Shown in pieces: positions 126 through 16,210 of a stretch of 21,065 nt of DNA. The stretch's first letter is position 1. The number at the start of each line of letters is the position of its first letter. Source of the stretch: a virus (Duplodnaviria; Heunggongvirae; Uroviricota; Caudoviricetes); IMG/VR virus record IMGVR_UViG_2718218228_000013; one strand, 5' to 3'. The notes below the pieces were generated by a model. It was not told the DNA's origin and searched no databases. It was given only the letters and a program-made list of their open reading frames with translations. The position numbers and the translations under genes are program-made.

Positions 126-142
126 ATGGTGCGATAATAGGA
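126..142. repeat. Left att-type direct repeat of the P4-like element (ATGGTGCGATAATAGGA)
   Basis: 17/18 identity (one 1-nt gap) with 13012-13029, which is the 3' end of the tRNA-Thr fragment next to int; same orientation. Confidence 0.55.
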
Positions 143-675
143 ACCAATAATCGCCACCAACACAATGATTTTAATACATAAATTAAAATAGAAGATTTAA
201 ACTACACACACCCCTATACACATTGGTGAAGGCGTTCGCTTTCCGCGCATTCTCAAGGCAGAAAAAACTTTTTTTGGGGGAAAACTGTTCATACTACTCA
301 TTGTGTTTTTTTTCATTAATATTCAAAAAGATATGAAATTAACGATTGATAAGAAGTGAACACTTTACTGTTCACCTTGACTGATTAATAAGTGCATAAA
401 AACCTAATTTTTGAGCACGGAAGGTATTTGTTCCTTACCCCATTTTTTCTCTTTAGTCCAGTACAACAAAAAATGCGCCCAACAGAAAACTGTTTTGAAT
501 TTAAATGCAATCGCTTTGTAGTGATTGTAACGTAAGTTGATTTGATGGGTGCGATTTTGTTTAGCGATAATGGTATGTTGTAAAAATCATTTCGTTGCAA
601 TAAAATTGCATCGCTACATTTTATAGACAATATCAATTAAATTTTAATACTCATTATTAATTTTGAGGCTAACAA

Positions 676-1632
676 GTGACTAGTTATTCAAACTTTTCCA
701 ATCAAATAAAAGAAACCATCAATAATAAATTCGATCATGAAATTCATGATTGGGACATTATAAAAAACTCAATCACAACTTTAATAAATAAAAATATCCA
801 TGGTGCAGGTAGAAATATCGTTGATTTTATAGATTTAGGTAACTGGGATTTTATTTCAAACTTTTCCTTTGATGACTCTACAAGAAGACTTGAATTAGAG
901 TGGCACCCCAATGATAAATTCCATATATATATTGAGTCCGTTGTGTTTGTCGAGTTTAATGACACTATATATGCTTTCTTAAAGGGATACTATCACAATC
1001 AGTTATCTCTAAATAGAATATATAATACAAAATGCTCTTCATGTTCATTTGAAAACTCAGGTTCTTATATGGTAGACGTTTATAGAACGGTTAAAAGAGT
1101 AAATGAGACAATCCAGACCCCAAATATAAATTGCTATACTACATGTATTTTAACAAGGCCCGCAAATGGTCATGTTACATCTACAGGCTTCTCACGAAAC
1201 CTCATGGATGCGATAAATATTTCATTAGCAGAGCACAAAATAGCCTCTTTACATAATGAAGTCATGAGTATTGAGGAATATGATCGTGATTCTTTACAAG
1301 AGAAAGGAAATACTGCCAGGAGATATTTAGAATATATTCTCATGCTTGTTAATATTCGTATAATGCATTTAAACAACGTTCAATACCAAGAGCAAATGCT
1401 AGGTAGTTTAGTTTCTGTTATTGAGGCTCTGGACTATGAACCATTAATGAAAAATGATGTTGAAATTACAAAGGACATCCTTAATGCTTGCAGCCACCAC
1501 GGGGGGGTTAGAATTGAAAAGAAAGATGTAATTTTTTCTTTGGAAGTTATTGAAAACTTAATTAAAGCCATAAAGAAAACCGACATAAATAAATTACAAC
1601 TCGATGGGATGTTTAAATCAATTCAAAAATAA
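676..1632 (+). CDS. Hypothetical protein (318 aa), AT-rich cargo gene between left att repeat and primase
   Basis: Long ORF with GTG start; GAGG 7 nt upstream; much more AT-rich than the adjacent primase gene. No motif recognised. Confidence 0.6.
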   Translation: MTSYSNFSNQIKETINNKFDHEIHDWDIIKNSITTLINKNIHGAGRNIVDFIDLGNWDFISNFSFDDSTRRLELEWHPNDKFHIYIESVVFVEFNDTIYAFLKGYYHNQLSLNRIYNTKCSSCSFENSGSYMVDVYRTVKRVNETIQTPNINCYTTCILTRPANGHVTSTGFSRNLMDAINISLAEHKIASLHNEVMSIEEYDRDSLQEKGNTARRYLEYILMLVNIRIMHLNNVQYQEQMLGSLVSVIEALDYEPLMKNDVEITKDILNACSHHGGVRIEKKDVIFSLEVIENLIKAIKKTDINKLQLDGMFKSIQK

Positions 1633-1764
1633 ACATCATCTAACAATGAATTAGATGCATTTTCCGCTGACGCCTTAGCATATAACTTTTAAATTTTATC
1701 GATATATATTTTGAGATAATTTCCTGTAGCGGATTTAAGACCGGCACAGCCGGTCTTAGGTCAG

Positions 1765-4098
1765 TTATTTCGCTGCAAACTCATCGCATTTTGGCAACCA
1801 GTCAGCATTGCTTTCCTCTCTTAGGGCCAGATTAGTCTGCATTCCTTGATTGGTCCGTCGTTTCTCATACTGCAGCCCATATTCCTTGAGCATTAACGGT
1901 AGCCCCTTGCCAAACATGGTCAGACTGAGCGTATTTTTATAGCCGTTAGCCTCCATGTAGACCAGATAGGCATGGTAGAGGTAAGTTCGAGGCTGACGTG
2001 GAACAATATTAGCGTTCCCCATAAACATGCCCGTGGTGTCAGGTAGGACCTCAAGGTAGCCGCAAAAATCAAAAGCTGAATCAGCATCACGTTTGATGGT
2101 GAGCGCTTCATCGGAGTTCTGCTGTGACTGAAGCAATGTCCTGGCACTCATTGGGTCGCTGAAACGCTGCATAAGCTGGCGAACAATCACCGCTAGCTCA
2201 CTGGCAATTTTCTCTTTGAGCTGGGTATCGCGTTCCTCCGGGGCTATCTGGTCGGGGAAATGCAGGATCACCCTTCGGCGTGAAACTCCACCACTACGAT
2301 CAGTGAAGCGCATCGGATTATTGTTCACAGCCAGGATGACCGCCGGGATGTGGGTTGAATAGGCGTTCTGATATTTGGGATCAACGGATACCGCATCGCC
2401 GCCAGTGATGGCTTTTAGTCCGGCCCCGTCACCGCTCCACTTTTCCTGGTCGGGAAGTCGAATCAGTGAAAAACCTATTAACGCAGCTCGTTCTCTTGGC
2501 GACTCAAGCATTTCAATGGTTGCCGAGGTCGCGTTATCTTCACCCGCCAGCATGGTTGCTATTTCAGCAAGAATACTCTTTCCACTTCCGCCAGGGCCAG
2601 TGACCTCCAGAAACAGCTGCCAGTCATAACGGTTAGCCAGCACCATAAACAATGCAGCCAGAATAATGTCCCGTTTTTCAGGATTAAAACCTGCGGCACG
2701 ATCCAGCCAGCGCCAGAATGCCGGGGCATGGGTTTCCAGTGACTCACCGTCAACGGGCTGCGTGTAATCCACCTCGCACAGCGTACGTAACCAGTGCTTC
2801 TTATCGTGCGGGCTGAACAATCCTGTCCGGGTATCGAGCACACCGTTGCGAAATCCGATAAGTTGCCGCGCCGGATTCTGCTGTTGCGGAACGATCAGTT
2901 TGAGGGTTTCCACGAGAGACGCAATTTTCGCGGATGAAAAAGGTGCGTCGAGGCGCTGAAACAGCGCAGCGACATCACGGGCAAAATCGGCGTAATAGAT
3001 AACTTTCCAGGCCCCCGCCTCATAGCGTGAAAGGAGCTGCCCGTTCGGGTCTACTGCCAGTGAATTTTTATAGTGATCCACTACCCTCTGCGCTTTTTCG
3101 CTGACGCTCAGCGCGGTAAATTCAGCTTCGCTCATTGTGTCGAAGGGGCTGGCAACAGCTGGTTTTATTACTTCATGAATTGCATGCCGGGTGGCTTCTT
3201 CGCCGTTTTGCGTGAATGCATCGTTCCAGTCACCAAACACAGGCGGGAGCGCCATTGTGCAATTGCAGGCCCCGGTAACAGCTGCGCCCCTTGTTTGCCC
3301 CGCACCGTTGAGATCGCGGTCAGCAGCAATAATTATCTGGTGCGTTGGGTACTCACTGCAGGCAATGCTCGCCAGGGAAAGGAAATTGACGGACGAAAAG
3401 GCCACCATGACAGCATCGCCAGTCAGATAGTTGATAGTAAGTGCGGTGGCATATCCTTCCGCTATCCAGAGCCGTTTGGCTGCTTTGGCAGTACCTTCAA
3501 CCAGGTAAAAGGCATTCTTAACCTGACCGCCTTTAAGGAAGCATTTGCCCCCATTAGCGTTGATTAACTGCAGATTTACCAGCTCTCCATCTGCATACAA
3601 TGGAACGACAAGATCTCCCGCGCGAAATGCCACACCACCGACTTTATGCATAGCGGTTAATTCCCGGCAAGGCAGTGCAGGAAACCCTTTACTCGTCAGA
3701 TAGGCATTGCCAGTGGTCTGGCGGGACTTATCAAACAAACGGGCAGCCAGCACTGCTGCAGCTTTTCTCCCGTCCTCTTTTTCAGGAGAACCAGATTCAA
3801 GCATTCCCTGAGATACTGGCAGCAGGTTTCCGATAATGCCGTTTATTCTGTCTGCCGCTTCACTAATGCCTACATCCAGTACTTTACTTACAAGCGCCAG
3901 GCCATCACCTGCCCCGCACTGGTTACAGAACCACGTTCCCCGCCCTTCCTGGTCATCAAATCGAAAGCGGTCTTTCCCGGCACAGACCGGGCAGGGCTGG
4001 TGCCGATTTTTCAGTACATTTACGCCCAGCGCAGGTAAAATTCTTGACCAGTGACCCCGAGCTGCTTTCTCAGCCTGGCTAACTTTCATTCCTGACAT
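1765..4098 (-). CDS. P4 alpha-type DNA primase-helicase (777 aa)
   Basis: ORF 1765..4155; start placed at the internal ATG (4098) preceded by AAGGAGGG. N-terminal Cys-rich zinc-binding primase region (CPVCAGKDRFRFDD...WFCNQCG); Walker A-like GPGGSGKS. Length equals P4 alpha (777 aa). Confidence 0.92.
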   Translation of the reverse strand: MSGMKVSQAEKAARGHWSRILPALGVNVLKNRHQPCPVCAGKDRFRFDDQEGRGTWFCNQCGAGDGLALVSKVLDVGISEAADRINGIIGNLLPVSQGMLESGSPEKEDGRKAAAVLAARLFDKSRQTTGNAYLTSKGFPALPCRELTAMHKVGGVAFRAGDLVVPLYADGELVNLQLINANGGKCFLKGGQVKNAFYLVEGTAKAAKRLWIAEGYATALTINYLTGDAVMVAFSSVNFLSLASIACSEYPTHQIIIAADRDLNGAGQTRGAAVTGACNCTMALPPVFGDWNDAFTQNGEEATRHAIHEVIKPAVASPFDTMSEAEFTALSVSEKAQRVVDHYKNSLAVDPNGQLLSRYEAGAWKVIYYADFARDVAALFQRLDAPFSSAKIASLVETLKLIVPQQQNPARQLIGFRNGVLDTRTGLFSPHDKKHWLRTLCEVDYTQPVDGESLETHAPAFWRWLDRAAGFNPEKRDIILAALFMVLANRYDWQLFLEVTGPGGSGKSILAEIATMLAGEDNATSATIEMLESPRERAALIGFSLIRLPDQEKWSGDGAGLKAITGGDAVSVDPKYQNAYSTHIPAVILAVNNNPMRFTDRSGGVSRRRVILHFPDQIAPEERDTQLKEKIASELAVIVRQLMQRFSDPMSARTLLQSQQNSDEALTIKRDADSAFDFCGYLEVLPDTTGMFMGNANIVPRQPRTYLYHAYLVYMEANGYKNTLSLTMFGKGLPLMLKEYGLQYEKRRTNQGMQTNLALREESNADWLPKCDEFAAK

Positions 4099-4111
4099 TG
4101 TGCGGCCCTCC

Positions 4112-4435
4112 TTAGTGCAGCGCTGGTTTGTTGAGGTGACGGGAACAAAGTTCATCCATGACCGTCATTCCGAGCAGTGAGAGAACCGGACAGGCTTTAA
4201 GCGGCCCCGACTCCATCAGATCCGAAAGCAACGCGCAGGCAATTTCCAGCCCTCTTTGCTGCCCATGCTGGCGCAGATAGAACCCTTCCAGCTCGCGGGC
4301 TATGGCATCTTCAAGTTCAGCGAGCGTCAGGCCGGAATAACGTTCCTGATGATTGCTTAGAGCCAGCCAGGCACAGGCAACGGCACGGCGATACAGAGCG
4401 GCACGAAGTGCCAGAAGAGATTCACAGCATATCAT
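4112..4435 (-). CDS. Hypothetical protein (107 aa) upstream of primase
   Basis: ORF whose start overlaps the upstream gene stop (TGATG-type) and ends 13 nt before the primase start. No motif recognised. Confidence 0.5.
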
Positions 4436-4656
4436 CAGGCCACCTCCGCATTCATCAGGTCGTCATGGCAGCGTTGCACCACTCCATCCAGTTGCTCTGT
4501 CATCAGATAAATGAGGGAAACCAGTTGTTCGCATTGGGCACCTGCTGGCTTTTCATAACAGTCCTGCAGGGCTGCCATGCCAGTTACATACTCACCCACA
4601 TTGCGTAAATGTTTCAGCCTTACAACATCGTCGTAGGAAATCTCAAACTGGTTCAT
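4435..4656 (-). CDS. Hypothetical small protein (73 aa)
   Basis: ATG start with GGAGG 9 nt upstream; ATGA overlap with the upstream small gene. Confidence 0.5.
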
Positions 4657-4847
4657 AGCGTCACCTCCCCGGCAGGCAGCCGTGCAGAAAGGGAGAGTAC
4701 ATAATCTCGGACTAGCAAACGGCGCGCGGAACGCTCATCGCAGGAGACAGTGCGAAGCATACAGATGCGGGGGTGAGTGTCAGCACGGCGGATTGCGGCA
4801 AACACAAAGACATATTGCGGGTGTGACGGGGTGAGGATTGTAGCCAT
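4653..4847 (-). CDS. Small protein (64 aa), possible Icd/Kil-like host-interference protein
   Basis: Internal ATG of the 185-aa ORF, preceded by GGAGG with 8-nt spacer; sits where P4/P1 immunity regions carry kil/icd. Identity is a guess. Confidence 0.35.
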
Positions 4848-4879
4848 GATGGCAGCCTCCAATAAGTAGCGGTTATTGC

Positions 4880-4980
4880 TACCACCGGAAACGCCAATTT
4901 CACTGGTGGCAGCCCGAACGGGGTTGGCGTAACCGGCCTTATTGGAAACCGGCCAGCCCGAAGGCTGCCCCGCCCGGACT
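4880..4980 (-). ncRNA. Candidate c4/cI-type antisense immunity RNA region
   Basis: Hairpins (CAGCC-CGAA-GGCTG at 4954-4967) and three GGCAGCC/GGCTGCC motif copies in mutually complementary orientations, one overlapping the RBS of the downstream small gene (4851-4860). Boundaries approximate. Confidence 0.3.
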
Positions 4981-5206
4981 ACCATTATCTCGATAGAACC
5001 ATGGTGTAAGCATAAACACCACAGCCCTGAAAATGGTTGTGCCTGAGCTACGACGTAAAAAAAGACGCAAGGGGCGTCAATTGTCGCCAATAAGTTATAC
5101 GGAACGCCAATTCCGGCTGCCGATTTTGCGACAGCGGAAAAACTATACCTGGAAATGACGACAGTAAGCAAGCCAGAATAAAGGTATTTAATGTATGCAG
5201 GTATCA

Positions 5207-5467
5207 TCATGCATCACATCCCCGCCCACGGGCGCTGATGCGGTCCGCCATCCATGCGCTGACCTCAGACTGTGCCCAGGCGACATTTTTACCGCCAAGC
5301 GGGATCTGCTTCGGAAACGCATCGCGGCTGATCAGGTCGTAAACGGTCGAACGGGACAACCCGCATAAGTGCATCACCTCAGGCAGGCGTAAAAATCGCT
5401 CATGATGGTTCGATACAGGAAATAATGGCGCAGCAGGAGCTGGCGCAGACACAGAAATATTACGCAT
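5207..5467 (-). CDS. alpA: AlpA/Vis-family phage transcriptional regulator (excisionase-like HTH)
   Basis: [23 protein letters not shown]...[12 protein letters not shown] matches the AlpA family pattern; AGAGGG RBS upstream. Confidence 0.8.
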
Positions 5468-6019
5468 TTATCTACCCTCTTTAATTTCCACAACAGTCCG
5501 GATGAATTTATCCGGGTTCAGGTAGTTCCTTATTATGTGTATATAAACCACCTGCGCACGCATTTTTTATTTAGCGTCACATATTGATTTTATGGAATTT
5601 AAAGCCCGATTAAACCATATAAAATGACATAATAAATACCATGCCTGCGGACTATAAATACAGGAGCATTAATAGGAACTACCATTCACCCAGGGTTTAC
5701 TATCCTATGGGTCATTGCACCTGATAGTGCTAACCCCACCGCCAATACAGCAAGGCAGTACAACTTCTACACGAGGCCTTGCATTGCAGGCCCCAATTTC
5801 CGGGCATATTTTTGAATCGCATCCAACTTATAAACATTGGGCCTGCATAAAAACCTTGATATTAAATAACATCACCTTAAATCGTAAAATATATCCGAAT
5901 GAATCCATAAAGAACCGGACAGATCTAGTTTTATAAAAATCAGTATGAAATGCAACACCATGGCCAGAGGCGAAAATGTTATTCCCCGGCAAAAACATGC
6001 AGTCTATTTATGTGCCTGT

Positions 6020-6234
6020 TGAATACTCCTGAATAAGGGTGAATAGTGGTGAGGAGCAAAAAACAAATAGCTACGAGGAATAAAAAAACCACCCATTATG
6101 AAAAAATACCATAAATAATTTTATTCCCATGTGAACAGTTATGAACAGTCGATGAATACTGCCATGCCAACCCTTCACCTTATAACCTTCTGTATTACCT
6201 ATTTTTTTTACCTAAGTGAATAGTAGTGAATAGT
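6020..6234. repeat. Cluster of at least 7 direct 8-9 bp iterons TGAA(T/C)A(G/C)T, candidate alpha-binding crr/ori-type site
   Basis: Copies at 6020, 6040, 6132, 6142, 6153, 6217, 6227, mostly 10 bp apart; reverse complement contains TGTTCAC, the P4 type I iteron core. Similar motifs at 286-295, 356-364 and 369-376. Confidence 0.5.
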
Positions 6235-6312
6235 TAAGGTAAGTCTGAAACAGCCTTAGTTAAACGAGGCCTTTTCTGGCTAGCCAAAAGAGGTCCGGGG
6301 CGGTTCAGTCTT

Positions 6313-6330
6313 TGTCTTGTCGCTCGCACA
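6313..6330 (+). promoter_or_regulatory. Candidate Ogr/Delta-dependent late promoter element (TGT-N12-ACA dyad) upstream of sid-like gene
   Basis: TGTCTTGTCGCTCGCACA fits the P2/P4 late-promoter activator dyad, about 70-90 bp upstream of the ATG at 6401. Confidence 0.4.
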
Positions 6331-6400
6331 ATGGCGTTCAATGGCAGCTTTGTATGCATCACAGCACAATTGACACCACGACAAACCACTAGGTGCTGAC

Positions 6401-7153
6401 ATGACAATCCCAGAACAGAACAATAACCCGATCGTTGAAATTTCTATCCCTGTTTCGACGCAACAGGCGCTTGAGAAAGTGAATGCCACCAAATCTGCAT
6501 GGCTTGAAGCACGTCGTCAGCAAAAAGCGGCAGCGGATAATATTGCGACAATCCGCCAGCGCCGCGCTGAAATGGAAGCCACGACGAACGCCCTGAATGA
6601 GGAGTGGCGCACGCTATTTCGTGAAAGTCAGGGCGTAGTCTCAAAGGAAATGAAAAAACTGCGCACGGAAATTGCGCTGGGACGAGAAACGCTTGAGGAT
6701 TTTGATGAGCTGCTGGCGGCTCAGGAAAGCGAAAATGCACTTTTGCCGCAGGAGGCTGCGGAATTAGCCGGAAAGTATATCCACGCGCACGACACCCTTG
6801 TGGGTATTCGCGCAAAACAAATCTGGGAAGATTTTATGCAGTCGCATGGAAAAGCACTAATCCAGACACTAAGCCTGCTCAAATCAACAATGGGCAGGGA
6901 AGCCAGCGCAGTTGTCGGTGTGGTGCATTCAGTTAATGACCCGGACACACTGCTGAAAGATTTTATTCATAAACATATCACCAGACCGGCTCTGACTAAC
7001 GATGCGATGCCCGAACAGGACCCCGTGTTTAAACTGGCGGGAGTTGCCCCGGATTATGCGGCCCGTCTGGATTTCAGTAATAAACTCTCTCCAGCAGCTA
7101 TGCATAAAATGAAGGTTCGTCAGGAACGTGCTGAGAAGGAGAAAGCAGTATGA
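6401..7153 (+). CDS. sid: Sid-like capsid size determination (external scaffold) protein
   Basis: 250 aa (P4 Sid 244 aa); first gene of the late operon; internal similarity to the downstream Psu-like protein; stop overlaps the next start. Confidence 0.6.
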   Translation: MTIPEQNNNPIVEISIPVSTQQALEKVNATKSAWLEARRQQKAAADNIATIRQRRAEMEATTNALNEEWRTLFRESQGVVSKEMKKLRTEIALGRETLEDFDELLAAQESENALLPQEAAELAGKYIHAHDTLVGIRAKQIWEDFMQSHGKALIQTLSLLKSTMGREASAVVGVVHSVNDPDTLLKDFIHKHITRPALTNDAMPEQDPVFKLAGVAPDYAARLDFSNKLSPAAMHKMKVRQERAEKEKAV

Positions 7154-7701
7154 TGGCCCGAGTCACTCCAGACCAAGCGCTTATCAGTTTTAGAAATGCC
7201 CGTATTCTGTGGGCTGGACATAGTGAGAGCCGAAAAGCCGTTGAACAACAGATAGAATCACTCCTCACTGCCATGGAAAAACCAGCAGATTATGCTCGAC
7301 AGCTCGAATTACAGCGGGAACATCTGGATGTGCTGAAATGGCAAATTAACTGTGCTGCGCGCGAATGCATTTACTCGCAGCATCAACTGATGGAGGCCTG
7401 CACAGAAGACGCTCTCAGCAATTTTATGCAGGCGAATGGAGCAGCCCTGACATCTGCACTGGCTCCGTTCCTGAAGGGGCGCGGAGGGGTTGACGTTGCG
7501 TCCCGTATATTACGCAATGCTCTGGTTCGCCAGCTGGCAATAACACCGCCTGAAATTGCCGGGGATTATCGTATGATTCTGGATGAATCCGGTGTGATGC
7601 CTGACCCCATGATGGTTCGTGATTGCCAGAGCTCTTACACCCCTGCACAACAACTGCGCTTTCAGCAACGTCTGGATTACATTAACGGCATGCAGGAGTA
7701 A
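7150..7701 (+). CDS. psu: Psu-like polarity suppression / capsid decoration protein
   Basis: 183 aa; LKWQINCAARECIYS, FMQANGAALTSALAP and YTPAQQLRF resemble P4 Psu as I recall it. Confidence 0.7.
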   Translation: MMARVTPDQALISFRNARILWAGHSESRKAVEQQIESLLTAMEKPADYARQLELQREHLDVLKWQINCAARECIYSQHQLMEACTEDALSNFMQANGAALTSALAPFLKGRGGVDVASRILRNALVRQLAITPPEIAGDYRMILDESGVMPDPMMVRDCQSSYTPAQQLRFQQRLDYINGMQE

Positions 7702-7706
7702 TATTA

Positions 7707-7979
7707 ATGGCACTTAAATGTCCCGAATGCGGTACGACGGCACACGCCAGAACCTCCGCCTATGAAGCACCATCGGTTAAACGCTCATGGTATCAGTGCC
7801 AGAATCTTGAATGTTCCTACACATTTACCGCACTGGAAAGTGTGGATACGATAATCATGAAGCCCCGGCGCAATGAACAGGAATCAGAGAAAGCACAAAT
7901 GCCGGAAAAACAACAGCAAACTCTCAATCGCTATGGCTCCGCGTCAAAGCTGTCAAGCCGTCAGCAAATTCCTGTCTGA
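7707..7979 (+). CDS. Ogr/Delta-family zinc-finger late transcriptional activator
   Basis: CPECGTTAHARTS...YQCQNLECSYTF, the classic Ogr/Delta Cys4 motif; 90 aa. Confidence 0.9.
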   Translation: MALKCPECGTTAHARTSAYEAPSVKRSWYQCQNLECSYTFTALESVDTIIMKPRRNEQESEKAQMPEKQQQTLNRYGSASKLSSRQQIPV

Positions 7980-7999
7980 TTAGCAAAAAAAGCCCACGT

Positions 8000-8027
8000 A
8001 ATCCCGGTCCAGTACTGGGATTTTTTA
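8000..8027 (+). terminator. Rho-independent terminator after the late operon
   Basis: GC-rich palindrome AATCCCGGTCCAGTACTGGGATT followed by TTTTTT, about 20 nt after the Ogr/Delta stop. Confidence 0.6.
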
Positions 8028-8332
8028 CGCCTTTTCCCTGGCTGGCCTGAGAGCGCATGAGTGCATGTCTATAGCGCATGAAAACGCATGATTCTCATGC
8101 ACCATTTTTGACGCGAAAGCCCTTGTGTGGTGGCTTCTGAGACGATTTGCGGAATGCATGAAAACCAGTCTGTTAAGCGAAGCGAGCAGGCGTGGGGGGC
8201 TGCGCGCGCTAAGGGGTTAGATTATAAAATATCAAACGCCGGTGAGATCCATTATTGTGGAACCACCCGAAGGAAGTGTAGAGGCGAAAGTACCCAAAAT
8301 AATTTTGCAAATTATTTAGAAATGAACTGAGC

Positions 8333-8358
8333 GCTCGAAACGAAATATAATTTCGAGC
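8333..8358 (-). terminator. Hairpin downstream of the minus-strand hotspot cassette (candidate terminator)
   Basis: GCTCGAAA-N10-TTTCGAGC inverted repeat about 30 nt after the stop of the last cassette gene; flanked by T-rich sequence. Confidence 0.4.
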
Positions 8359-8388
8359 ACCCCAATTAGCAGTTATATTTTTAATGTA

Positions 8389-8955
8389 TTAAACAGGATA
8401 AAAACCAGAGCTTCCATTCTTATTTAAGTTATGGATTTTATTTGCATCATTAATTTTTATTTGGAACGTCGGACCTTTATTCTCAAGAATTACAATCTGG
8501 AAATTATAGTCCCTTTTGATTAATGCGTGATAAAATGAATCACTGAGACTGACGCTATTAACATCCGATAGAGAACCCCCTCTATCTTTATCAAAGTGCG
8601 TCACTAATGGACTATCAAGCACAACAAATCCAATGAATGGATTCCCTTTTCTTGATAAAAATTCCGCAAAGCAAATGGTAAATATAGCATGCATTACTGC
8701 ACGGGTACCTTTACCAAACATTCCTCGGCGTTTCCCATTGATATTAAAGTCATATGTATCTTCGTCAAATCGCACTTTGTTATCTTTAGAATTTTCAAAA
8801 TTTATATCATTCAAAAAGTCTTGCATCGCTATTTCTATATCATACAAATCAGCTACTGTTAAGGAGTCAAAGTCCTCGGCGGAGTATTTAAGTTCGTCAA
8901 CATCATCTTCTTTATCTTGTAATGAAGATAGAATGCTATGTTTTGTGTGATCCAT
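8389..8955 (-). CDS. ABC/SMC-like ATPase C-terminal lobe (Walker B-like FVVLDSP), hotspot cassette gene 6
   Basis: 188-aa ORF; hydrophobic strand + D (PFIGFVVLDSP); ATG overlaps upstream stop as TAATG; could be a frameshifted continuation of the upstream ORFs. Confidence 0.55.
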   Translation of the reverse strand: MDHTKHSILSSLQDKEDDVDELKYSAEDFDSLTVADLYDIEIAMQDFLNDINFENSKDNKVRFDEDTYDFNINGKRRGMFGKGTRAVMHAIFTICFAEFLSRKGNPFIGFVVLDSPLVTHFDKDRGGSLSDVNSVSLSDSFYHALIKRDYNFQIVILENKGPTFQIKINDANKIHNLNKNGSSGFYPV

Positions 8956-9545
8956 TAAAAGATTGTCTTTATATTCATAAAGTGATTCAAGAGATGAATG
9001 TATTGTTTTATATTTTTATCTTCTAACGTCTTAAAATCACTTTTTTCTGATTGATAAATTTCATTAACATCATTTTTTCTTAACATAATTAATTCATGTT
9101 CGCGAACATTAGATCCGATTGATTCAATTAATCCTTTCAGCTGGCTTTTGATTTTCAATTTTTCTGCATTACACGACAAAAAACAATCATCATATGATAT
9201 TTCATTTTCTTTTTTTTGCGGTGTATTACAGAACTCACAATAAATATCTGCAAAATTATTTAAATAGAAATTCGCCTGTGATACAACATCTATTCTTTGT
9301 AGATCTATAAAGTATTGGTCTTTAAGAAGACTAAATCTTTCAATGAGTAATGATAAGTATTTTTCCCTGTCACTGATTGAATATAATTCATCACTTAACT
9401 CTTTTAATAATTGCTTCTTATCATCAAGTGCATCAACAATACCTTTCAATATATCTTTCGATGATTCAATATCTTGCTCTACTTTCTCAAGTTCTCTTGA
9501 AACAATGACTTGATCATATTCAGGATAAATTAATTGCGCTTTCAA
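8955..9545 (-). CDS. Coiled-coil segment with central CxxC (CEFC), hotspot cassette gene 5
   Basis: 196-aa K/E/L-rich heptad-like sequence; same frame as the upstream Walker A ORF, separated only by one TAA (9576-9578). Confidence 0.5.
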   Translation of the reverse strand: MKAQLIYPEYDQVIVSRELEKVEQDIESSKDILKGIVDALDDKKQLLKELSDELYSISDREKYLSLLIERFSLLKDQYFIDLQRIDVVSQANFYLNNFADIYCEFCNTPQKKENEISYDDCFLSCNAEKLKIKSQLKGLIESIGSNVREHELIMLRKNDVNEIYQSEKSDFKTLEDKNIKQYIHLLNHFMNIKTIF

Positions 9546-9575
9546 TTCCTCATAAATATTTGCAATTTGATTTTT

Positions 9576-10226
9576 TTAAAAATATCTTGCTTTTTTATTT
9601 GGTTTTTCTGCTAAGGAGTTAGTATCATCTCTCTGAGTTAAAAGGAATTTAAATTCAGACTTTCTTTTTGTCTCCTCGCTAGGAATATCAGAAAGAATTA
9701 ACGACTTCTCAGTTAACACTCTTAATTCATCAATACAAAAAAATTCAAAAACATTATTAAGATTAAATTTATGAAGAGTATTACTTAAGTTTGTTCTTAC
9801 TTTAGCCTCTTTGAAATTCAACCTACCATAAAAGTATGATGAAAAACTCTTTTTAGACGAAGCACTTTTGGAAAAAACCATCAACAGATTAGCTTCACTA
9901 ACATTTTCAATGCTCGAATCATATAATCTGTAATGGGCGCTATCCTGAAGAGACCTCTCAATTGTCATTACCCTACCTTGAAAATTAAATTCCAGATAGG
10001 CTAAATCATAACCTTGAGCATGATCGATATCTTTATTTTTTAGTTTTTCACTCCCTAATAAATATCGAATCAAATAATATATGTATGTTTTTCCAGAGTC
10101 AGAACCACCATATAAAATAGTCAATTTAGAACCAAATTCAATTATAGCATCTAATTTATTGAATCCGGTTACCTTTATTTTTCTGAACGTAAAAAAATTG
10201 TCATTCATAATTAAATTCCATATCAT
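9576..10226 (-). CDS. ABC/SMC-like ATPase N-terminal lobe (Walker A GGSDSGKT), hotspot cassette gene 4
   Basis: LTILYGGSDSGKTYI P-loop in a RecF/SMC-like N-terminal context; ORF opens at TTG 10235, ATG starts at 10226 or 10208; ends at in-frame TAA. Confidence 0.6.
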   Translation of the reverse strand: MIWNLIMNDNFFTFRKIKVTGFNKLDAIIEFGSKLTILYGGSDSGKTYIYYLIRYLLGSEKLKNKDIDHAQGYDLAYLEFNFQGRVMTIERSLQDSAHYRLYDSSIENVSEANLLMVFSKSASSKKSFSSYFYGRLNFKEAKVRTNLSNTLHKFNLNNVFEFFCIDELRVLTEKSLILSDIPSEETKRKSEFKFLLTQRDDTNSLAEKPNKKARYF

Positions 10227-10659
10227 ATTTGCCAATTTTATTTTTTATAATTGATTGCAACTGCTCATCAGGAATATCACTATATAACTTAACCACCAAA
10301 TTTATATTATGCTCCATCTGCGCAACATATTCATTATGTAGAGAATTTGTAAATGCATATGTTTTTTCAGAAGCTTTATATACAAAACCACGATGTGTAT
10401 AAATTTTTGAGGCTAGTTCATAGCCTTGCAACAAAGCCAATGATTCTAAAACAATCTCTCGTTTTAGGGCTAACTGAGCATCTCTACGGGGTATTGGAGG
10501 ATGAAGACTAATCTCTTCAGGTAAAAAATCCTTAAGATTTACTAAAATAAAATCAAAACAAATAAGCCGTTCAAGGCTTAATGAAGAAGGATAAATAGCG
10601 ACGAGCACTTTCGCCATTCGACATGCCACTTCTAAACTTGAATTATAAATTCTAACCAT
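10201..10659 (-). CDS. Hypothetical small protein (about 152 aa), hotspot cassette gene 3
   Basis: ATG at 10659 overlaps upstream stop as TAATG; GGTGA 4 nt upstream; stop overlaps start region of gene 4. No motif recognised. Confidence 0.5.
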   Translation of the reverse strand: MVRIYNSSLEVACRMAKVLVAIYPSSLSLERLICFDFILVNLKDFLPEEISLHPPIPRRDAQLALKREIVLESLALLQGYELASKIYTHRGFVYKASEKTYAFTNSLHNEYVAQMEHNINLVVKLYSDIPDEQLQSIIKNKIGKYDMEFNYE

Positions 10660-11276
10660 TATCTCACCGTCCAAATTACTTCACCATCATTAACCAAATG
10701 ATGGCATATTCCTTTTTTATCATTTGCTTCACATATTTTTGATAGTACTGAATGTGCAATTGGTGTCAGAACAGCCTGCTTCAAGACTGCATTACACCTA
10801 ATAAATGCATAATTATGGTCTTCATAAAAGACGGGTTCAATTGAAGATGAAATGTAACATTTCAATGCTTTGAATACATCATCTTTAAATACTTCGCGGA
10901 CAAAAACCTCAAGCGAAGATGCAAAATAAAAATCATTTCTACTATTATTAAAGTGTCGTCTGTATGGATCATCAAGCTCTAAGAAAGAACTATAAGTTTT
11001 ATTTCCATGCTCTGAATAGGCTTGAAGCAGTGCATTAACATATACAGACTCTTTTTTTGAATTGTATGTTGGAATTTCATTTGGAGGGATTCTCACGACA
11101 TACAGCTCGTTAAAGTACTTAAAATAAAGGTGTGTATTTGCAATATCATTTAAAATCAATGATAAGGGTAGAGAGTAAAAAATACTAAAATCAAAATCCT
11201 CAATATATTTTTTTATTTCATCATCTAATGGAATATCAATCTTTTTAGTTATTTTTTTGAAATTGCTGAATCCCAT
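10659..11276 (-). CDS. Hypothetical protein (205 aa), hotspot cassette gene 2; possibly C-terminal part of a frameshifted gene 1-2 fusion
   Basis: AT-rich ORF with one candidate start; overlaps gene 1 by 28 nt across an A7 tract where a 1-nt indel would fuse the frames. Confidence 0.5.
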   Translation of the reverse strand: MGFSNFKKITKKIDIPLDDEIKKYIEDFDFSIFYSLPLSLILNDIANTHLYFKYFNELYVVRIPPNEIPTYNSKKESVYVNALLQAYSEHGNKTYSSFLELDDPYRRHFNNSRNDFYFASSLEVFVREVFKDDVFKALKCYISSSIEPVFYEDHNYAFIRCNAVLKQAVLTPIAHSVLSKICEANDKKGICHHLVNDGEVIWTVR

Positions 11277-11665
11277 GAATCAAGGACTGCTTTTTTAAGC
11301 TCGTTTTTATTTTTCAATAAATTAGAAAATGTAGTAGATAAATCATAGGGTGCCACAAAAAAGTACTTCTGAGGGATGGGATAATCACCATTCAGAGTAA
11401 AATAGATAAGTTTTCCAAACTCAACTACAACATCAGAGAACCCTAAACTTTTTTTGTACAGTTTGCATTGATAATTATCCCAAGAATAACCTTCTACGTT
11501 AGGATCCGATTTATATCCAACAACGTCTCTACCTTTATCTCCAGCTCCTCCCAAACGTTCGCTCCACGGGTAATCATCTGATTTACAGACAATAAGCCAA
11601 TCATGGACAAATACCCCCCATTGTTCATCATCCCATGTCAATATTTCCGAAAGTGGTTGAGACAC
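11249..11665 (-). CDS. Mrr-type PD-(D/E)xK restriction-endonuclease-like domain protein (138 aa), hotspot cassette gene 1
   Basis: GGAGDKGRDVVGY ... YQCKLYKK matches the Mrr catalytic pattern; GTG start with AAGGAG 7 nt upstream, 3 nt after the int stop. Confidence 0.55.
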   Translation of the reverse strand: MSQPLSEILTWDDEQWGVFVHDWLIVCKSDDYPWSERLGGAGDKGRDVVGYKSDPNVEGYSWDNYQCKLYKKSLGFSDVVVEFGKLIYFTLNGDYPIPQKYFFVAPYDLSTTFSNLLKNKNELKKAVLDSWDSAISKK

Positions 11666-11668
11666 AAA

Positions 11669-12850
11669 TTAACTCCTTTTTAGTCTTTCAAATATCAAAT
11701 TACTGTACCAGTCCATCATAGACTTCCTTCCACTAAAATATTGAGCATGGTTATAAGTCCCCCTAATAGAATTTTTATCTACATGAGCCAACTGGATTTC
11801 AATCCAAGCACTCTCAAAACCTTGCTCATGCAGGATTGTAGAAAGGGTATGACGAAAACCATGTCCAGTGACTTTTCCTCCATACCCAATACGCTTAATG
11901 GCTTGATTTATACTCGCTTCGCTCATTGGCCTATTCGGATCGTTCCGCCCTGGAAAAACATAACGATAGTTCCCTGTCATGATCTTGAGTTCATTGAGTA
12001 AATCTACCGCTTGAGATGATAAGGGCACAAGATGTGGCCTACGCATTTTCATCCTTTCAGCAGGAATTTCCCAAATAGCGTTATCCAGATCAAATTCTTG
12101 CCATAATGCCGCGCGTAATTCGATGGTTCTCACACCCGTAATCATCAGTAATTTCGTGGCTATCTGGACAAGCTTACTCCCGGAGTAACCCTCTAAGGCA
12201 CGTAGAAAATCAGGTATCTCATCAGCTTTTAGGAATGGGAAATGATTGGATTGGTGTACTTCGAGAGCGCTGGAGAGATCAGCCGCAGGATTGTACTCCG
12301 CCCTACCCGTTGCAATTGCGTAGCGAAACACTTCGGAGCAACGCTGCCGCACTTTGCGCATTTTCTCCAACGCACCACGTTTCTCAATTTTACGCAGAAC
12401 GTTCAGCAGCTCTAGCGGTTTAATCTCTCCCACAGGCCTTGTTCCGACATAAGGAAAAATGTCGTTCTTAAACGCTTCCATGATGTCTGATGCATATCCC
12501 GCCGACCATTTAGCAGATTTAAGTTGATGCCACTCTCTGGCTATCTTTTCGAAGGCGTTCTCTGACTCTGTTTGCATAGCTAGCTTTTGCTCTTTTCGAA
12601 CCTCACTAGGGTTCTTTCCTTCTGCCACAAGTTTTCGAGCTTCATCACGACGGGAACGAGCATCGGCAAGGGTGATCGTTGGGTAAACACCAAGCGAGAT
12701 CATTTTGGGTTTGCCGGCATAGCGATAGCGGAACCGCCAACTCTTGCTTCCATTAGGTTCTATAAGTAATGACAACCCTAGCCCATCTCCAAATGTATAG
12801 GCTTTAGCTTCAGGCTTAGCGCGGCGAATCTGCATATCGTTTAAAGGCAT
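11669..12850 (-). CDS. int: P4-type tyrosine integrase
   Basis: MPLNDMQIRRAKPEAKAYTFGDGLGL N-terminus and C-terminal HGFRHT...Y catalytic region; start placed at ATG 12850 (ORF opens at 12901). Confidence 0.92.
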   Translation of the reverse strand: MPLNDMQIRRAKPEAKAYTFGDGLGLSLLIEPNGSKSWRFRYRYAGKPKMISLGVYPTITLADARSRRDEARKLVAEGKNPSEVRKEQKLAMQTESENAFEKIAREWHQLKSAKWSAGYASDIMEAFKNDIFPYVGTRPVGEIKPLELLNVLRKIEKRGALEKMRKVRQRCSEVFRYAIATGRAEYNPAADLSSALEVHQSNHFPFLKADEIPDFLRALEGYSGSKLVQIATKLLMITGVRTIELRAALWQEFDLDNAIWEIPAERMKMRRPHLVPLSSQAVDLLNELKIMTGNYRYVFPGRNDPNRPMSEASINQAIKRIGYGGKVTGHGFRHTLSTILHEQGFESAWIEIQLAHVDKNSIRGTYNHAQYFSGRKSMMDWYSNLIFERLKRS

Positions 12851-12900
12851 GTGTATAGGAATCCAGACCGAACAGGAACATATACACAATCCTATACACA
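12850..12900. promoter_or_regulatory. Perfect 11-bp inverted repeat (TGTGTATAGGA / TCCTATACACA) bracketing the int translation start region
   Basis: Arms at 12850-12860 and 12890-12900 separated by 29 bp, immediately upstream of and overlapping the int ATG. Confidence 0.4.
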
Positions 12901-13012
12901 TTCAGTACCGGATTCTACTGGATGGTTACGGACTACTATGGACTTAAAAGAATAAAAAATGTTATAAATCAGAGATTTTATGGACTAATACGGACGTTTG
13001 AGGAAGTTGAGA

Positions 13013-13058
13013 TGGTGCCGATAATAGGAGTCGAACCTACGACCTTCGCATTACGAAT
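13013..13058 (-). other. 46-nt 3' fragment of a tRNA-Thr(CGU) gene (anticodon loop to CCA), right att copy of the P4-like element
   Basis: Reverse complement ATTCGTAATGCGAAGGTCGTAGGTTCGACTCCTATTATCGGCACCA matches the 3' part of enterobacterial tRNA-Thr(CGU) as recalled; no complementary 5' acceptor strand, so not an intact tRNA. Confidence 0.75.
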
Positions 13059-13405
13059 TATAAGAATCCGCTTCTAATTCAAAGCATTACCCCATCAACA
13101 CTGCGCTCACACGTCCCACCACATCAAAACATGTAAAGCCTTGCAAGCCATTGCGAGGCCTTATGTGTCTCAGTTTTGTCCCACCTTGTATTACGACTTG
13201 CATAGCCAATGAAGATAAACGTGACGACAAACGGCGCAGCAGTCTTCTTTTCTTTCACGACTTCTCCAGCATGCATACCTTTCTGCCATGACTGAAGTGA
13301 ATGCCTGTTATGAGCAAGGATTGGCCCAGATGAATCGCCCTGGACTGTTGCGATCGTGAAGCCATAGACTGGGCCGCAAGCACGGGAGGTTACGATAAAG
13401 CGACA

Positions 13406-13771
13406 GTGCAGGATGTCATGTTAGGAGCGATAGAAAAACGCTTTGGCGATAAAGTACCGGAACAGTCCATCCAGTGGCTGACAGATAACGGTTCAGCGTA
13501 TAGAGCGCATGAAACACGGCAGTTCGCCAGAGAGTTGAATCTGGAGCCCTGCACAACGGCAATCAGCAGTCCTCAGAGTAATGGAATTGCAGAAAGGTTC
13601 GTGAAAACGATGAAGGAAGACTACATCGCGTTCATGCCGAAACCGAATGTAAGAACGGCATTGCATAATCTTGCAGTGGCGATCGAACATTACAATGAAA
13701 ACCATCCGCACAGTGCGTTGGGTTATCGCTCTCCGCGAGAATATCGACGTCAGCGGGTAACGTTAACTTAA
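13406..13771 (+). pseudogene. IS2-like (IS3 family) transposase OrfB C-terminal fragment; IS remnant about 13130-13810
   Basis: [11 protein letters not shown]...[16 protein letters not shown]...[14 protein letters not shown] is the DDE-core C-terminus typical of IS2 OrfB; no upstream OrfA or N-terminal OrfB in frame. Confidence 0.7.
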
Positions 13772-13812
13772 GATACCCCCCCTGTCTGGAAATAAGGGGG
13801 CAAGAACAATGA

Positions 13813-14556
13813 TCAGATTCCCTGGTGAGTAAGAATTTTACTTTCTGAACTCCTCTGAGAGTATTGACTTGGAGAAACACCAAAATAACGTCTAAATACA
13901 TAAGTAAAGTATGAGACACTGGCATAACCACAGACCTTAGCTACTTTACTAATAGGATAACAACGAGTGCTGAGTAAATATTCAGCCATTTGCATCCTCT
14001 CATCAAGTATGATCTTACTGAATGATACCCCCTCTTCTTTCAATTTCCTCTTTAGTAAACTTTCGCTGAGATATAATCTTGATGATATATCCTTAAGACG
14101 CCATGGTGCAGATAAATCCGTATGAATAATCGTTTTAACTTTAGCCCCTGTGCTTTTCAAACATCCAAACAGAAATACTCCAAATTGTTTTTCAGAAGAA
14201 AATGCAGAGAGACATGTAAAAGCAATAGACTCATCAAAAATTTCTATGTATTCAGCACAGTGATTAGCCCAACTAATTAATCCTTTAATTAAACTGAAGT
14301 CAGCAAAGTTTATTTTTAAATAAGATGGATATTCCCTACAATCAGAAATATCCCTTAAGTTATTAGCTTTCAAATAGCGACTAATAAACTCAGCGCCAAA
14401 ATCCGCCACTATCACTCTTTCAGGATATGTCAGGAAAAAATCTCTAGAGCTAGAGTCGACAAGTACAGATGAACCTCTCTCCAGAAACACACTCTCTTTT
14501 CCGAAATAAACATCAAAGGACTCCAAAATCAATATAACTGAACATGTAGTTGCCAT
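13813..14556 (-). CDS. AraC-family transcriptional regulator (AppY/EnvY-like)
   Basis: C-terminal AraC-type HTH (LKDISSRLYLSESLLKRKL...YFTYVFRRYFGVSPSQY); AT-rich. Confidence 0.8.
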   Translation of the reverse strand: MATTCSVILILESFDVYFGKESVFLERGSSVLVDSSSRDFFLTYPERVIVADFGAEFISRYLKANNLRDISDCREYPSYLKINFADFSLIKGLISWANHCAEYIEIFDESIAFTCLSAFSSEKQFGVFLFGCLKSTGAKVKTIIHTDLSAPWRLKDISSRLYLSESLLKRKLKEEGVSFSKIILDERMQMAEYLLSTRCYPISKVAKVCGYASVSYFTYVFRRYFGVSPSQYSQRSSESKILTHQGI

Positions 14557-15138
14557 ATCATCCCCCCAATTTAACTGAAACCAGGATGAAGTATATGTAT
14601 ATAAAGTTCACTTTGCCAAACTTCAGTATAAAAAACCACTAAAAATAGGGTGTGATAAAAAATACCGTAACAATAAAGCAAAGGATTATAAATTCCGTTA
14701 CAGTTACAAATGATACTCAAGAAACAATTCCTTAGGAAAAACTTATTTACAGCCAATAAGTAAGACACTTATATGATATCAAGTTTTCATAAAACATAAC
14801 TAGGCTAAATAGCTGCGCCTAATACCGCTACACTTTTGCCAGCCCATGTTTGCCTCCGGGTATTGACCCCTTCTCTACGCAACTTCAGTTCCCACCACCA
14901 ACTTTGCGGCAGCTTTGTAGGATCAATGTCTAAAAGAATAATGGTGACCGATAAGAAAACGACTGAATAACTGCAGATTTTCGCTCAAAACCTTCCTGTC
15001 AGATCCATAGCGAATCAAGTGCTGAATGTCACAGTATCGAACAGAAAACAGTGACGATCTAACCCTTCAAGAATATTCTACGATTGTTCTGTTTAGGAAA
15101 AGCAAGACGGGAAGTCGGGAGATAAGTCATTGATAAAG

Positions 15139-15200: not shown

Positions 15201-15283
15201 ACCCGATCATCAAACGAAACATAAAATTAGCTCACATTATGAGGAAAGGTATCTTTTTGCGCTATGTAAATTCAAAGGGTTAG

Positions 15284-16153
<870 letters not shown>

Positions 16154-16210
16154 ATCTTCAAGTGGTAAGCATAAACCGCAGCACGATCTTGCATACGACG
16201 TGCTACGGTT

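What the first reader, a model, noticed from the sequence alone, without database searches (positions are those of the whole stretch)
676..1632. Second AT-rich cargo gene between the left att repeat and the primase
A 318-aa ORF with a good RBS and AT content like the hotspot cassette, unlike the GC-richer satellite core, sits inside the element boundaries downstream of alpha. It has no motif I can recognise. This is a plausible second accessory locus (defence, anti-defence or abortive-infection candidate).
Basis: inference. Interest (0 to 1): 0.55.

Follow-up and report, generated by a model that had tools for sequence, protein, structure and literature searches.

The report
Uncharacterised HEPN-like cargo gene in P4 satellite
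A real, strongly conserved but unnamed gene sits as a 1.35-kb AT-rich insert in a minor defence-gene hotspot of an E. coli O157-type P4-like phage satellite, and its predicted protein (a binding-type domain joined to an RNase-type HEPN-like domain with an unusual active-site motif) looks like an untested single-gene anti-phage system.

Summary
Window 676-1632(+) is a genuine 318-aa gene (RefSeq WP_000205213.1, "hypothetical protein"). It has GC 0.31 against 0.52 for alpha, and dN/dS is about 0.06. It lies inside a ~12.9-kb P4-like satellite bounded by tRNA-Thr att copies at 127-144 and 13013-13058. It is an accessory gene. At least 12 related satellites join the alpha terminator directly to the crr/att arm, whereas here ~1.35 kb (387-1736) is inserted at that junction. 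None of 80 related satellite loci carries a homolog. Other satellites hold different AT-rich cargo at this junction (PARIS/OLD-like ATPase, SIR2, Mrr-like nuclease). A 2026 paper already describes this primase-att position as a minor P4 defence hotspot.

No Pfam, PADLOC, PHROG, NCBIfam or PDB sequence match exists. Homologs are always solitary and sit on ICEs, prophages and defence islands.

Best reading, untested: a sensor-gated single-protein HEPN RNase that acts by abortive infection. It would be a new variant of a known kind, of moderate interest.

The parts
676..1632 (+). ORF318 coding sequence (318 aa plus stop; GTG start), = WP_000205213.1 hypothetical protein
   Evidence: purifying selection and chance test; about 150 homolog clusters
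665..668 (+). Shine-Dalgarno GAGG, 7 nt before the GTG start
   Evidence: read directly from the sequence
676..1173 (+). N-terminal alpha/beta domain (aa 1-166) with conserved VDFxD..NWD (D50, D58), W76 and P162; a binding or sensor-type fold
1183..1629 (+). C-terminal helical HEPN-like domain (aa about 170-318)
1300..1344 (+). Helix-1 motif EKGNTARRYLEYILM (aa 209-223), with invariant R215 and E219; corresponds to the HEPN Ex3[KR] acidic motif (K223 in the family consensus, M in this protein)
   Evidence: motif definition from PMC3710099
1483..1506 (+). Motif NACSHHGG (aa 270-277): N270, S273, invariant H274 and G277. This is the N and H of an RNxxxH-type HEPN motif, with Leu269 in place of the Arg
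387..1736 (.). The ~1.35-kb AT-rich cargo cassette (GC 0.31) inserted between the satellite's crr/att arm and the alpha terminator
   Evidence: blastn against 80 related satellites: homology blocks window 1737-4174 and window 126-386 are adjacent in at least 12 loci; insert sizes and GC; GC
1732..1762 (.). GC-rich hairpin between the convergent ORF318 and alpha genes; terminator-like on the + strand. Most related satellites share sequence from about 1737 onward
127..144 (.). Left att: a degenerate copy of the tRNA-Thr (thrW) 3' end, reverse complement. Window 1 to about 145 matches the thrW flank in most E. coli
145..386 (.). Satellite left arm (crr-like) with an exact alpha iteron CTGTTCACC (reverse complement of GGTGAACAG) at 368-376; conserved next to alpha in related satellites
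   Evidence: the iteron consensus is from memory of the P4 literature
537..575 (.). Second, degenerate att-junction-like copy inside the cassette, upstream of ORF318 (unexplained)
1765..4155 (-). alpha primase-helicase of the P4-like satellite (context; defines the hotspot)
   Evidence: Pfam Zn_Ribbon_Prim, Toprim_3, D5_N, Pox_D5
13013..13058 (.). Right att: a 46-nt partial tRNA-Thr copy about 110 bp beyond the int start (int is 11669-12901, minus strand)

Best explanation
ORF318 is a horizontally mobile, single-gene cargo inserted in the minor 'primase-att' defence hotspot of a P4-like satellite. It most likely encodes a self-contained anti-phage protein of the abortive-infection type. The proposed mechanism is as follows. 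The N-terminal YojF/ChuX/PH-like domain acts as a sensor or gate, binding a phage-derived protein or small ligand. The C-terminal HEPN-like domain is a metal-independent RNase, probably acting as a dimer on tRNA or other RNA of the translation machinery. Its active site would be built from invariant H274 and near-invariant N270/S273, together with invariant E219 and R215 on helix 1, with R215 standing in for the missing Arg of the canonical Rx4-6H motif. Activation during infection would arrest translation, blocking competing phages and protecting the satellite-bearing lineage.

Shown: the gene is real, it is an accessory insert, the hotspot exists, the fold and the conservation pattern are as described, and homologs are solitary on mobile elements and in defence islands.

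Inferred: anti-phage function, RNase activity, the substitute role of R215, the sensor role of the N-domain, and the RNA target.
For: 1) Accessory insert. At least 12 related satellites have an empty alpha-crr junction, and the window carries 1.35 kb there. 0 of 80 related loci carry a homolog.
2) Same-site cargo in other satellites includes an AriA/OLD-like ATPase (E 3.5e-55), SIR2, and an Mrr-like PDC-S02 protein. The published minor defence hotspot lies between primase and att (PMC13586616).
4) Conservation is concentrated on a HEPN-type polar constellation. R215, E219, H274 and G277 are invariant and N270 and S273 near-invariant across 66 sequences reaching down to about 15% identity. This matches the Ex3[KR] motif, the polar residue that follows the motif Arg, and the catalytic His described for HEPN. 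There is a precedent for R-less families that have compensating basic residues (PMC3710099).
5) The N-domain has no enzyme fold, only small binding-module folds.
6) Homologs are always solitary and sit among varying neighbours on ICEs, a lambdoid prophage and integrase-bounded islands. Neighbours include type I and MmeI-like R-M, DRT UG24, a P4 cII-like protein, PDC-M60 and PDC-M34. The gene is AT-rich (0.29-0.34) in every host examined.
7) Selection is strongly purifying, with dN/dS about 0.06.
8) Functional analogues exist: HepS, ApeA and DARNA are single-protein HEPN anticodon nucleases triggered by phage components.
Against: There is no phenotype, expression or biochemical evidence. The canonical Arg of Rx4-6H is absent (Leu269 here; L/A/S/T elsewhere in the family), and motif-deficient HEPN domains can be non-catalytic binding modules. 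No HEPN sequence model from Pfam, PADLOC or NCBIfam matches, so the HEPN assignment rests on fold plus motif logic. In the Citrobacter ICE the homolog sits between an orphan methyltransferase and ArdC, which is a typical anti-defence neighbourhood. The promoter-like matches upstream are no more frequent than in shuffled sequence. Guilt by association is probabilistic: in the published tests 6 of 8 unknown P4 loci protected, and those were at the main hotspot.
Confidence: 0.55

Rival explanations
1. Anti-defence or counter-defence cargo. The protein would help the satellite, its helper phage or a conjugative element to overcome host immunity, for example by degrading or sequestering an immune signalling nucleotide or RNA through the HEPN-like site or the ligand-binding N-domain.
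For: In the Citrobacter ICE the 80%-identical homolog lies between an orphan N6/N4 methyltransferase and ArdC, with DUF932 nearby, which is a typical anti-restriction neighbourhood. HEPN domains can deplete cyclic oligoadenylate signals (statement in the DARNA preprint). The N-domain resembles small ligand-binding folds.
Against: Other cargoes at the same P4 junction are defence genes, and the position is published as a defence hotspot. Homologs also sit in non-mobile-looking chromosomal islets (Proteus, Aeromonas) and in defence islands. No structural relative was found among predicted viral proteins (BFVD: no hit below E 0.001, and the best hit at E 1.0e-03 has TM-scores of only 0.26/0.34). 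The same ICE region also carries type I R-M and an AAA_15 ATPase.
Confidence: 0.12
2. A non-catalytic HEPN-like adaptor or regulator. The helical domain would have lost nuclease activity (no motif Arg), and the protein would bind nucleic acid or a ligand in some satellite-host or regulatory role unrelated to immunity.
For: The canonical Arg is missing. HEPN domains that lack the motif are proposed to be binding modules. No HEPN sequence model matches.
Against: An invariant set of polar residues (R215, E219, H274, plus N270 and S273) across very divergent members argues for chemistry and not mere binding. The gene is absent from 80 related satellites, so it has no core satellite role. It occurs on unrelated types of mobile element.
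Confidence: 0.12
3. A toxin of an addiction (toxin-antitoxin-like) module that stabilises the satellite or island, with an unrecognised protein or RNA antitoxin.
Against: No conserved neighbour gene appears in any of about 12 contexts. No MNT partner is present. There are no tandem repeats or Rfam RNA upstream. Only the CDS is shared with the ICE copy, and the flanks are unrelated. The 83-aa antisense ORF at 385-636 is within the range expected by chance and is unannotated.
Confidence: 0.08
4. A functionless hitch-hiking gene or annotation artefact.
For: There is no direct evidence of expression, and all databases call it hypothetical.
Against: dN/dS is about 0.06. The open frame is 319 codons against a maximum of 143 in shuffles. 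About 150 clusters at 50% identity share conserved motifs, from Proteobacteria to Firmicutes. The two-domain fold is predicted confidently.
Confidence: 0.03

Closest known systems
HepS (Gifsy-1 prophage 'HEPN Solo' abortive-infection anticodon nuclease; PMC13043305)
   Same: A single-gene, constitutively carried cargo of a mobile element in Enterobacteriaceae. It has a HEPN fold, no partner gene, and sits in an accessory slot of the element. It provides a plausible model: a resting oligomer activated by a phage structural protein, followed by tRNA cleavage.
   Different: HepS is a standalone HEPN of under 250 aa with a canonical R100-x4-H105 motif. ORF318 has an extra 166-aa N-terminal domain, lacks the motif Arg, and shows no sequence similarity to any PDB chain.
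ApeA and DARNA (PD-T7-3): single-protein HEPN tRNases with an attached sensor domain
   Same: Both join a sensor domain to a HEPN effector in one polypeptide and work by abortive infection, activated by infection-derived ligands (deoxydinucleotides; SSB-bound ssDNA).
   Different: DARNA has an N-terminal HEPN (R117x4H122) plus a Pds5-like helical C-domain and forms dodecamers. ApeA has its own Pfam and PADLOC models. ORF318 matches none of them, has the opposite domain order to DARNA, and has a beta-rich sensor-type domain.
HEPN-T / HEPN-MNT toxins (e.g. 1wwp, 2hsb, 7ae2, 5yep) and the R-less Parep1/8 HEPN family
   Different: There is no adjacent MNT nucleotidyltransferase antitoxin, sequence identity is 7-14%, and ORF318 has an additional N-terminal domain.
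Cargo of the P4-like satellite 'primase-att' minor defence hotspot (PMC13586616) and the main psu-int hotspot (Rousset et al. 2022, PMC9122126)
   Same: Same location, same AT-rich single-cassette organisation, and same presence/absence polymorphism among related satellites.
   Different: This particular family is not among the named or tested systems in those papers as far as the held text shows. It is also not detected by PADLOC.

Membership tests
HEPN superfamily | Four-helix up-down bundle HEPN fold | tested here: met
HEPN superfamily | Catalytic His of the Rx4-6H motif | tested here: met
   H274 is invariant in 66 diverse members within the motif N-x2-S-H-(D/H)-(S/G)-G.
HEPN superfamily | Arg of the Rx4-6H motif, 4-6 residues before the His | tested here: not met
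   Position 269 is Leu in the window protein and L/A/S/T across the family, and no Arg or Lys occupies positions -5 to -7. Invariant R215 on helix 1 is a candidate substitute, but its spatial position could not be checked.
HEPN superfamily | Polar residue (N/D/H) immediately after the motif Arg position | tested here: met
   N270 is conserved in at least 90% of sequences. The criterion comes from PMC3710099.
HEPN superfamily | Upstream conserved acidic residue, typically Ex3[KR] | tested here: met
   E219 is invariant and the family consensus is RRxxExxLK (E219-x3-K223). In the window's own subfamily position 223 is Met.
HEPN superfamily | Match to a curated HEPN sequence model | tested here: not met
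   No Pfam HEPN family appears among the families listed for any of the 66 members at E up to 1. NCBIfam and PADLOC give nothing. One member carries a UniRef name 'HEPN domain-containing protein'.
HEPN superfamily | Metal-independent RNase activity at a dimer interface | not testable with these tools
   This needs biochemistry or a multimer structure.
P4-like satellite primase-att defence-hotspot cargo | Located between alpha and the att site, inside an att-bounded P4-like satellite | tested here: met
   The core genes alpha, Ash, AlpA, Sid-like, Psu, Delta and Int are present, as is the C4/CI RNA. The att copies are at 127-144 and 13013-13058, and the ORF is at 676-1632.
P4-like satellite primase-att defence-hotspot cargo | Variable occupancy of the site among related satellites, with known defence genes among the occupants | tested here: met
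   The junction is empty in at least 12 loci. Six loci have different AT-rich inserts, including AriA/OLD-like, SIR2 and Mrr-like proteins. The hotspot is described in the literature.
P4-like satellite primase-att defence-hotspot cargo | Confers anti-phage protection | not testable with these tools
   This needs a phage challenge assay.
HepS / ApeA / DARNA families | Family-specific architecture and sequence (HepS: solo HEPN under 250 aa with RX4H; ApeA: ApeA models; DARNA: N-terminal HEPN plus Pds5-like C-domain) | tested here: not met
   The architecture differs. There are no PADLOC or Pfam hits and no PDB sequence hits.
HEPN-MNT or type III (RNA antitoxin) toxin-antitoxin modules | Conserved adjacent antitoxin gene (MNT) or an upstream repeat RNA | tested here: not met
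   The gene is solitary in all contexts examined. There are no tandem repeats and no Rfam hit in 1-1800.

The most novel reading that the evidence does not exclude
The family could represent a previously unrecognised class of ligand- or protein-gated HEPN enzyme in which the catalytic arginine has moved from the Rx4-6H helix to helix 1 (R215-x3-E219 plus N270-x3-H274). It would be coupled to a new YojF/ChuX/PH-like sensor domain. Its trigger or substrate might differ from the known anticodon nucleases, for example a small-molecule signal or a non-tRNA target, and the system might even work in counter-defence instead of defence.
Probability: 0.15. Interest if true: 0.65.

Novelty: new variant of a known kind. 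Interest (0 to 1): 0.42.

Why it matters
If the gene protects against phages, it adds an unannotated single-gene immune system that is fixed in the E. coli O157:H7 lineage: it is 100% identical in about 300 complete genomes. It would also support the view that the little-studied primase-att slot of P4-like satellites is a second source of new defence genes.

Mechanistically, it would be a test case for how HEPN RNases tolerate relocation of the catalytic arginine, and for what a YojF/ChuX/PH-like module senses. The protein is small, solitary and from E. coli, so protection assays, point mutants and RNA-end mapping are simple to run.

If it does not protect, the finding is only a well-delimited accessory gene of unknown role.

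Tried and rejected
- Sequence-family searches were all negative: Pfam, PADLOC, PHROGs and NCBIfam on the window protein, on 66 diverse members, and on the extended-architecture members.
- Profile searches against PDB sequences returned only designed coiled coils.
- A PD-(D/E)xK nuclease reading of the N-domain, based on the VDFID motif, was rejected because the domain-only model matches YojF/ChuX/PH-like binding folds and no nuclease fold.
- The viral structure library (BFVD) gave no credible relative. AFDB50 was not available.
- An RNA-antitoxin or repeat upstream was not found.
- A conserved partner gene was not found. The neighbours tested were unrelated to each other, and some had no PADLOC hit.
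- The 83-aa antisense ORF at 385-636 was rejected as a chance ORF.
- A shared mobile cassette including the flanks was rejected, because only the CDS is homologous to the ICE copy.
- Literature and supplement searches for the accession and for signature motifs gave no hits. The supplements of the 2026 NAR paper are not held, and some DefensePredictor files are truncated, so prior testing cannot be fully excluded.
- The sigma-70 promoter scan gave no more matches than shuffled sequence, so it is uninformative.

Full report
**1. The observation**

Window 676-1632 (+) is an open reading frame of 318 codons plus a stop. It starts at GTG and has a GAGG Shine-Dalgarno sequence 7 nt upstream. RefSeq annotates exactly these coordinates as WP_000205213.1, "hypothetical protein".

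A frame this long is not expected in DNA this AT-rich. In 500 mononucleotide shuffles of 387-1736, the longest open frame averaged 71 codons and never exceeded 143. Against the 80%-identical Citrobacter homolog, dN/dS is about 0.06 with synonymous sites saturated.

| Segment | GC |
|---|---|
| ORF318 (676-1632) | 0.313 |
| Cassette (387-1736) | 0.310 |
| Main psu-int hotspot (8389-11665) | 0.310 |
| alpha (1765-4155) | 0.523 |
| Satellite core (1765-7979) | 0.502 |

.

**2. The element and its boundaries**

The neighbouring genes are those of a P4-like satellite:
- alpha primase-helicase, 1765-4155 (minus strand)
- a DUF5375 protein
- an Ash/Icd-like protein
- AlpA
- a Sid-like protein, Psu and Delta, 6401-7979 (plus strand)
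- an AT-rich hotspot, 8389-11665
- a tyrosine integrase, 11669-12901 (minus strand)

The P4 immunity RNAs (C4/CI RNA and isrK) are at 4902-5148.

Window 1 to about 145 matches the thrW flank present in most E. coli genomes. A degenerate copy of the tRNA-Thr 3' end lies at 127-144. A 46-nt partial tRNA-Thr copy lies at 13013-13058, just beyond the int start. The satellite is therefore about 12.9 kb, and ORF318 is inside it.

The rest of the window (about 13.3-21 kb) is a decayed prophage remnant lying between the satellite and thrW. This is why ARAGORN finds no tRNA in the window. The 300-1800 segment is at least 99% identical in 306 of the 308 matching records (307 of 5,426 complete E. coli genomes; the listed hits are 100% identical), and the listed hits are mostly O157:H7.

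**3. Accessory or core?**

I fetched 80 loci encoding relatives of alpha (56-94% identity, from different species). None encodes an ORF318 homolog within 6 kb of alpha (tblastn, E 1e-5 or better).

DNA comparison shows two homology blocks:
- alpha plus its terminator hairpin, window about 1737-4174
- the crr/att arm, window about 126-386, which contains an exact alpha iteron at 368-376 (the iteron consensus is from memory)

In at least 12 loci these two blocks are only 10-25 bp apart. In the window they are separated by about 1.35 kb (387-1736) that carries ORF318. Six other loci have different inserts of 0.8-2.5 kb at the same junction. All of these are AT-rich (GC 0.34-0.38, against 0.53-0.61 for alpha). 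They encode:
- a PARIS AriA/OLD-type ATPase (E 3.5e-55)
- an SIR2 protein
- an Mrr-like nuclease (PDC-S02)
- several unknown proteins

. The gene is cargo.

**4. The protein**

No curated family matches the protein: not Pfam, PADLOC, PHROGs or NCBIfam. Every database name for it is "hypothetical".

Close homologs form about 35 clusters in Enterobacterales and Aeromonas. A profile search of 1.84 billion representative proteins finds about 150 clusters, some with N- or C-terminal extensions that Pfam does not recognise. Members also occur in Bacillus and Paenibacillus, and UniRef labels one of them "HEPN domain-containing protein".

The N-terminal domain modelled alone is even more confident (pLDDT 93.7). 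It gives only modest matches to small binding modules and none to an enzyme fold:

**5. The active-site question**

Across 66 sequences reaching down to about 15% identity, the invariant residues are R215, E219, H274 and G277. N270, S273, D50, D58, W76 and P162 are nearly invariant. The family consensus is "EKGNTiRRilEyvLK" on the first HEPN helix and "aNElSHDSGkP" further on.

I compared this with the criteria of Anantharaman et al. 2013 (PMC3710099):

| HEPN criterion | Status in this family |
|---|---|
| Catalytic His | Present (H274) |
| Polar residue after the motif Arg | Present (N270) |
| Upstream Ex3[KR] acidic motif | Present (E219-x3-K223 in the consensus; Met at 223 in this subfamily) |
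| Arg of Rx4-6H | Absent (Leu269 here; L/A/S/T elsewhere) |

That paper notes a precedent, Parep1/8, in which the His is kept, the Arg is lost, and conserved basic residues elsewhere may take over. Invariant R215 lies one helical turn before E219 and is the obvious candidate. I could not check its position in three dimensions. I therefore describe the domain as HEPN-like with a non-canonical motif, and not as a verified HEPN RNase.

**6. Genomic contexts of homologs**

| Homolog | Host | Context |
|---|---|---|
| 80% identical | Citrobacter | In an ICE between an orphan methyltransferase and ArdC, next to type I R-M |
| P0022 | Proteus | Alone in a chromosomal islet |
| P0032, 45% identical | E. 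coli | Directly next to an integrase at thrW, beside a PDC-M60 candidate system |
| P0012 | Pantoea | In a lambdoid prophage |
| P0021 | Pectobacterium | In ICE cargo |
| P0036, distant | metagenome | Next to an MmeI-like enzyme |
| P0204 | B. thuringiensis | In an integrase-bounded island with DRT UG24, a P4 cII-like protein, a RES protein and a HepT-like protein |

No neighbour gene is conserved across these contexts. Only the CDS is shared with the ICE copy, and the flanks are unrelated. The gene is AT-rich (GC 0.29-0.34) in every host examined, even where the surrounding locus is 0.57. No upstream RNA or repeat suggests an RNA antitoxin. There are no credible structural relatives among predicted viral proteins.

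**7. Interpretation**

The best-supported reading is a solitary, mobile anti-phage gene. A sensor-type N-domain would gate a HEPN-like RNase that arrests translation on infection. This is analogous to, but not a member of, the HepS, ApeA and DARNA families. I put this at about 0.55.

The rivals are:
- counter-defence, suggested by the ArdC/methyltransferase neighbourhood (0.12)
- a non-catalytic adaptor, suggested by the missing Arg (0.12)
- an addiction toxin with a hidden antitoxin (0.08)
- a functionless gene (0.03)

Everything beyond [quoted passage not shown] is inference.

**8. Novelty and score**

The hotspot itself is already published, and single-protein HEPN defence systems are a known kind. 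What is new is the family: it has no curated model, its N-domain has only remote structural matches, and its HEPN motif is non-canonical. I found no sign that it has been tested or named in the literature and supplements I could search, but those sources are incomplete.

I rate it a new variant of a known kind, with interest 0.42. It is easy to test and relevant to O157:H7, but a specialist would not find it very surprising.

Noticed in passing
window 537-575 (compare 117-144): A second, degenerate copy of the left att junction lies inside the ORF318 cassette: TTGATTTGATGGGTGCGAT[TTTGTTTAGCGAT]AATGG against TTGATTTAAATGGTGCGATAATAGGAAC. It includes about 10 nt that are chromosomal flank at the true junction. 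It may be chance, or a relic of how the cassette was acquired. A 45%-identical homolog sits next to an integrase at thrW in other E. coli.
   Followed up: partly
window 4902-5148 (minus strand): Rfam finds the P4 immunity RNAs: C4/CI antisense RNA (84 bits), isrK (72 bits) and the c4 a1b1 target. They overlap the Ash/Icd-like ORF region, as in P4.
   Followed up: no
window 13013-13058: A 46-nt partial tRNA-Thr copy (reverse complement) forms the satellite's right att. ARAGORN reports no tRNA in the window. The intact thrW lies just beyond the window's end.
   Followed up: yes
window ~13300-21065: A decayed prophage remnant lies between the satellite and thrW. It holds an IS/integrase-core fragment, an AraC regulator, a LEM-3-like GIY-YIG protein, the pinE invertase with tail-fibre fragments, and an N-terminally truncated integrase at 20091-21065. 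Some strains carry IS1203 here.
   Followed up: partly
window 8389-11665 (minus strand): According to RefSeq, the main psu-int hotspot carries six AT-rich genes, including 'ABC-three component system' proteins and an AAA ATPase. In strain PV15-279 an IS1203 lies directly beyond the hotspot's last gene (annotated there as frameshifted), where the window has int; int and most of the prophage remnant are absent there, leaving an integrase fragment next to thrW.
   Followed up: no
window 6401-7979: The gene order is Sid-like (a weak Psu-family hit), then Psu, then Delta. From memory, this differs from the sid-delta-psu order of P4 itself. RefSeq calls the Sid-like protein a 'septation initiation protein'.
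   Followed up: no
L095 (B. thuringiensis CP132200.1) 953-12991: An integrase-bounded island in a Firmicute combines a family member with a P4 cII-like protein (PADLOC cll, E 1.9e-13), a UG24 defence reverse transcriptase fused to HD, a RES-domain protein and a HepT-like protein. A cII homolog this far from P4 hosts is unusual.
   Followed up: partly
L016, L025, L047 inserts downstream of alpha: Three related satellites carry AT-rich cargo at the same alpha-crr junction with no PADLOC hit: a 224-aa and a 220+168-aa set of predicted membrane proteins, and a 495-aa protein. These are further untested candidates from the same minor hotspot.
   Followed up: partly
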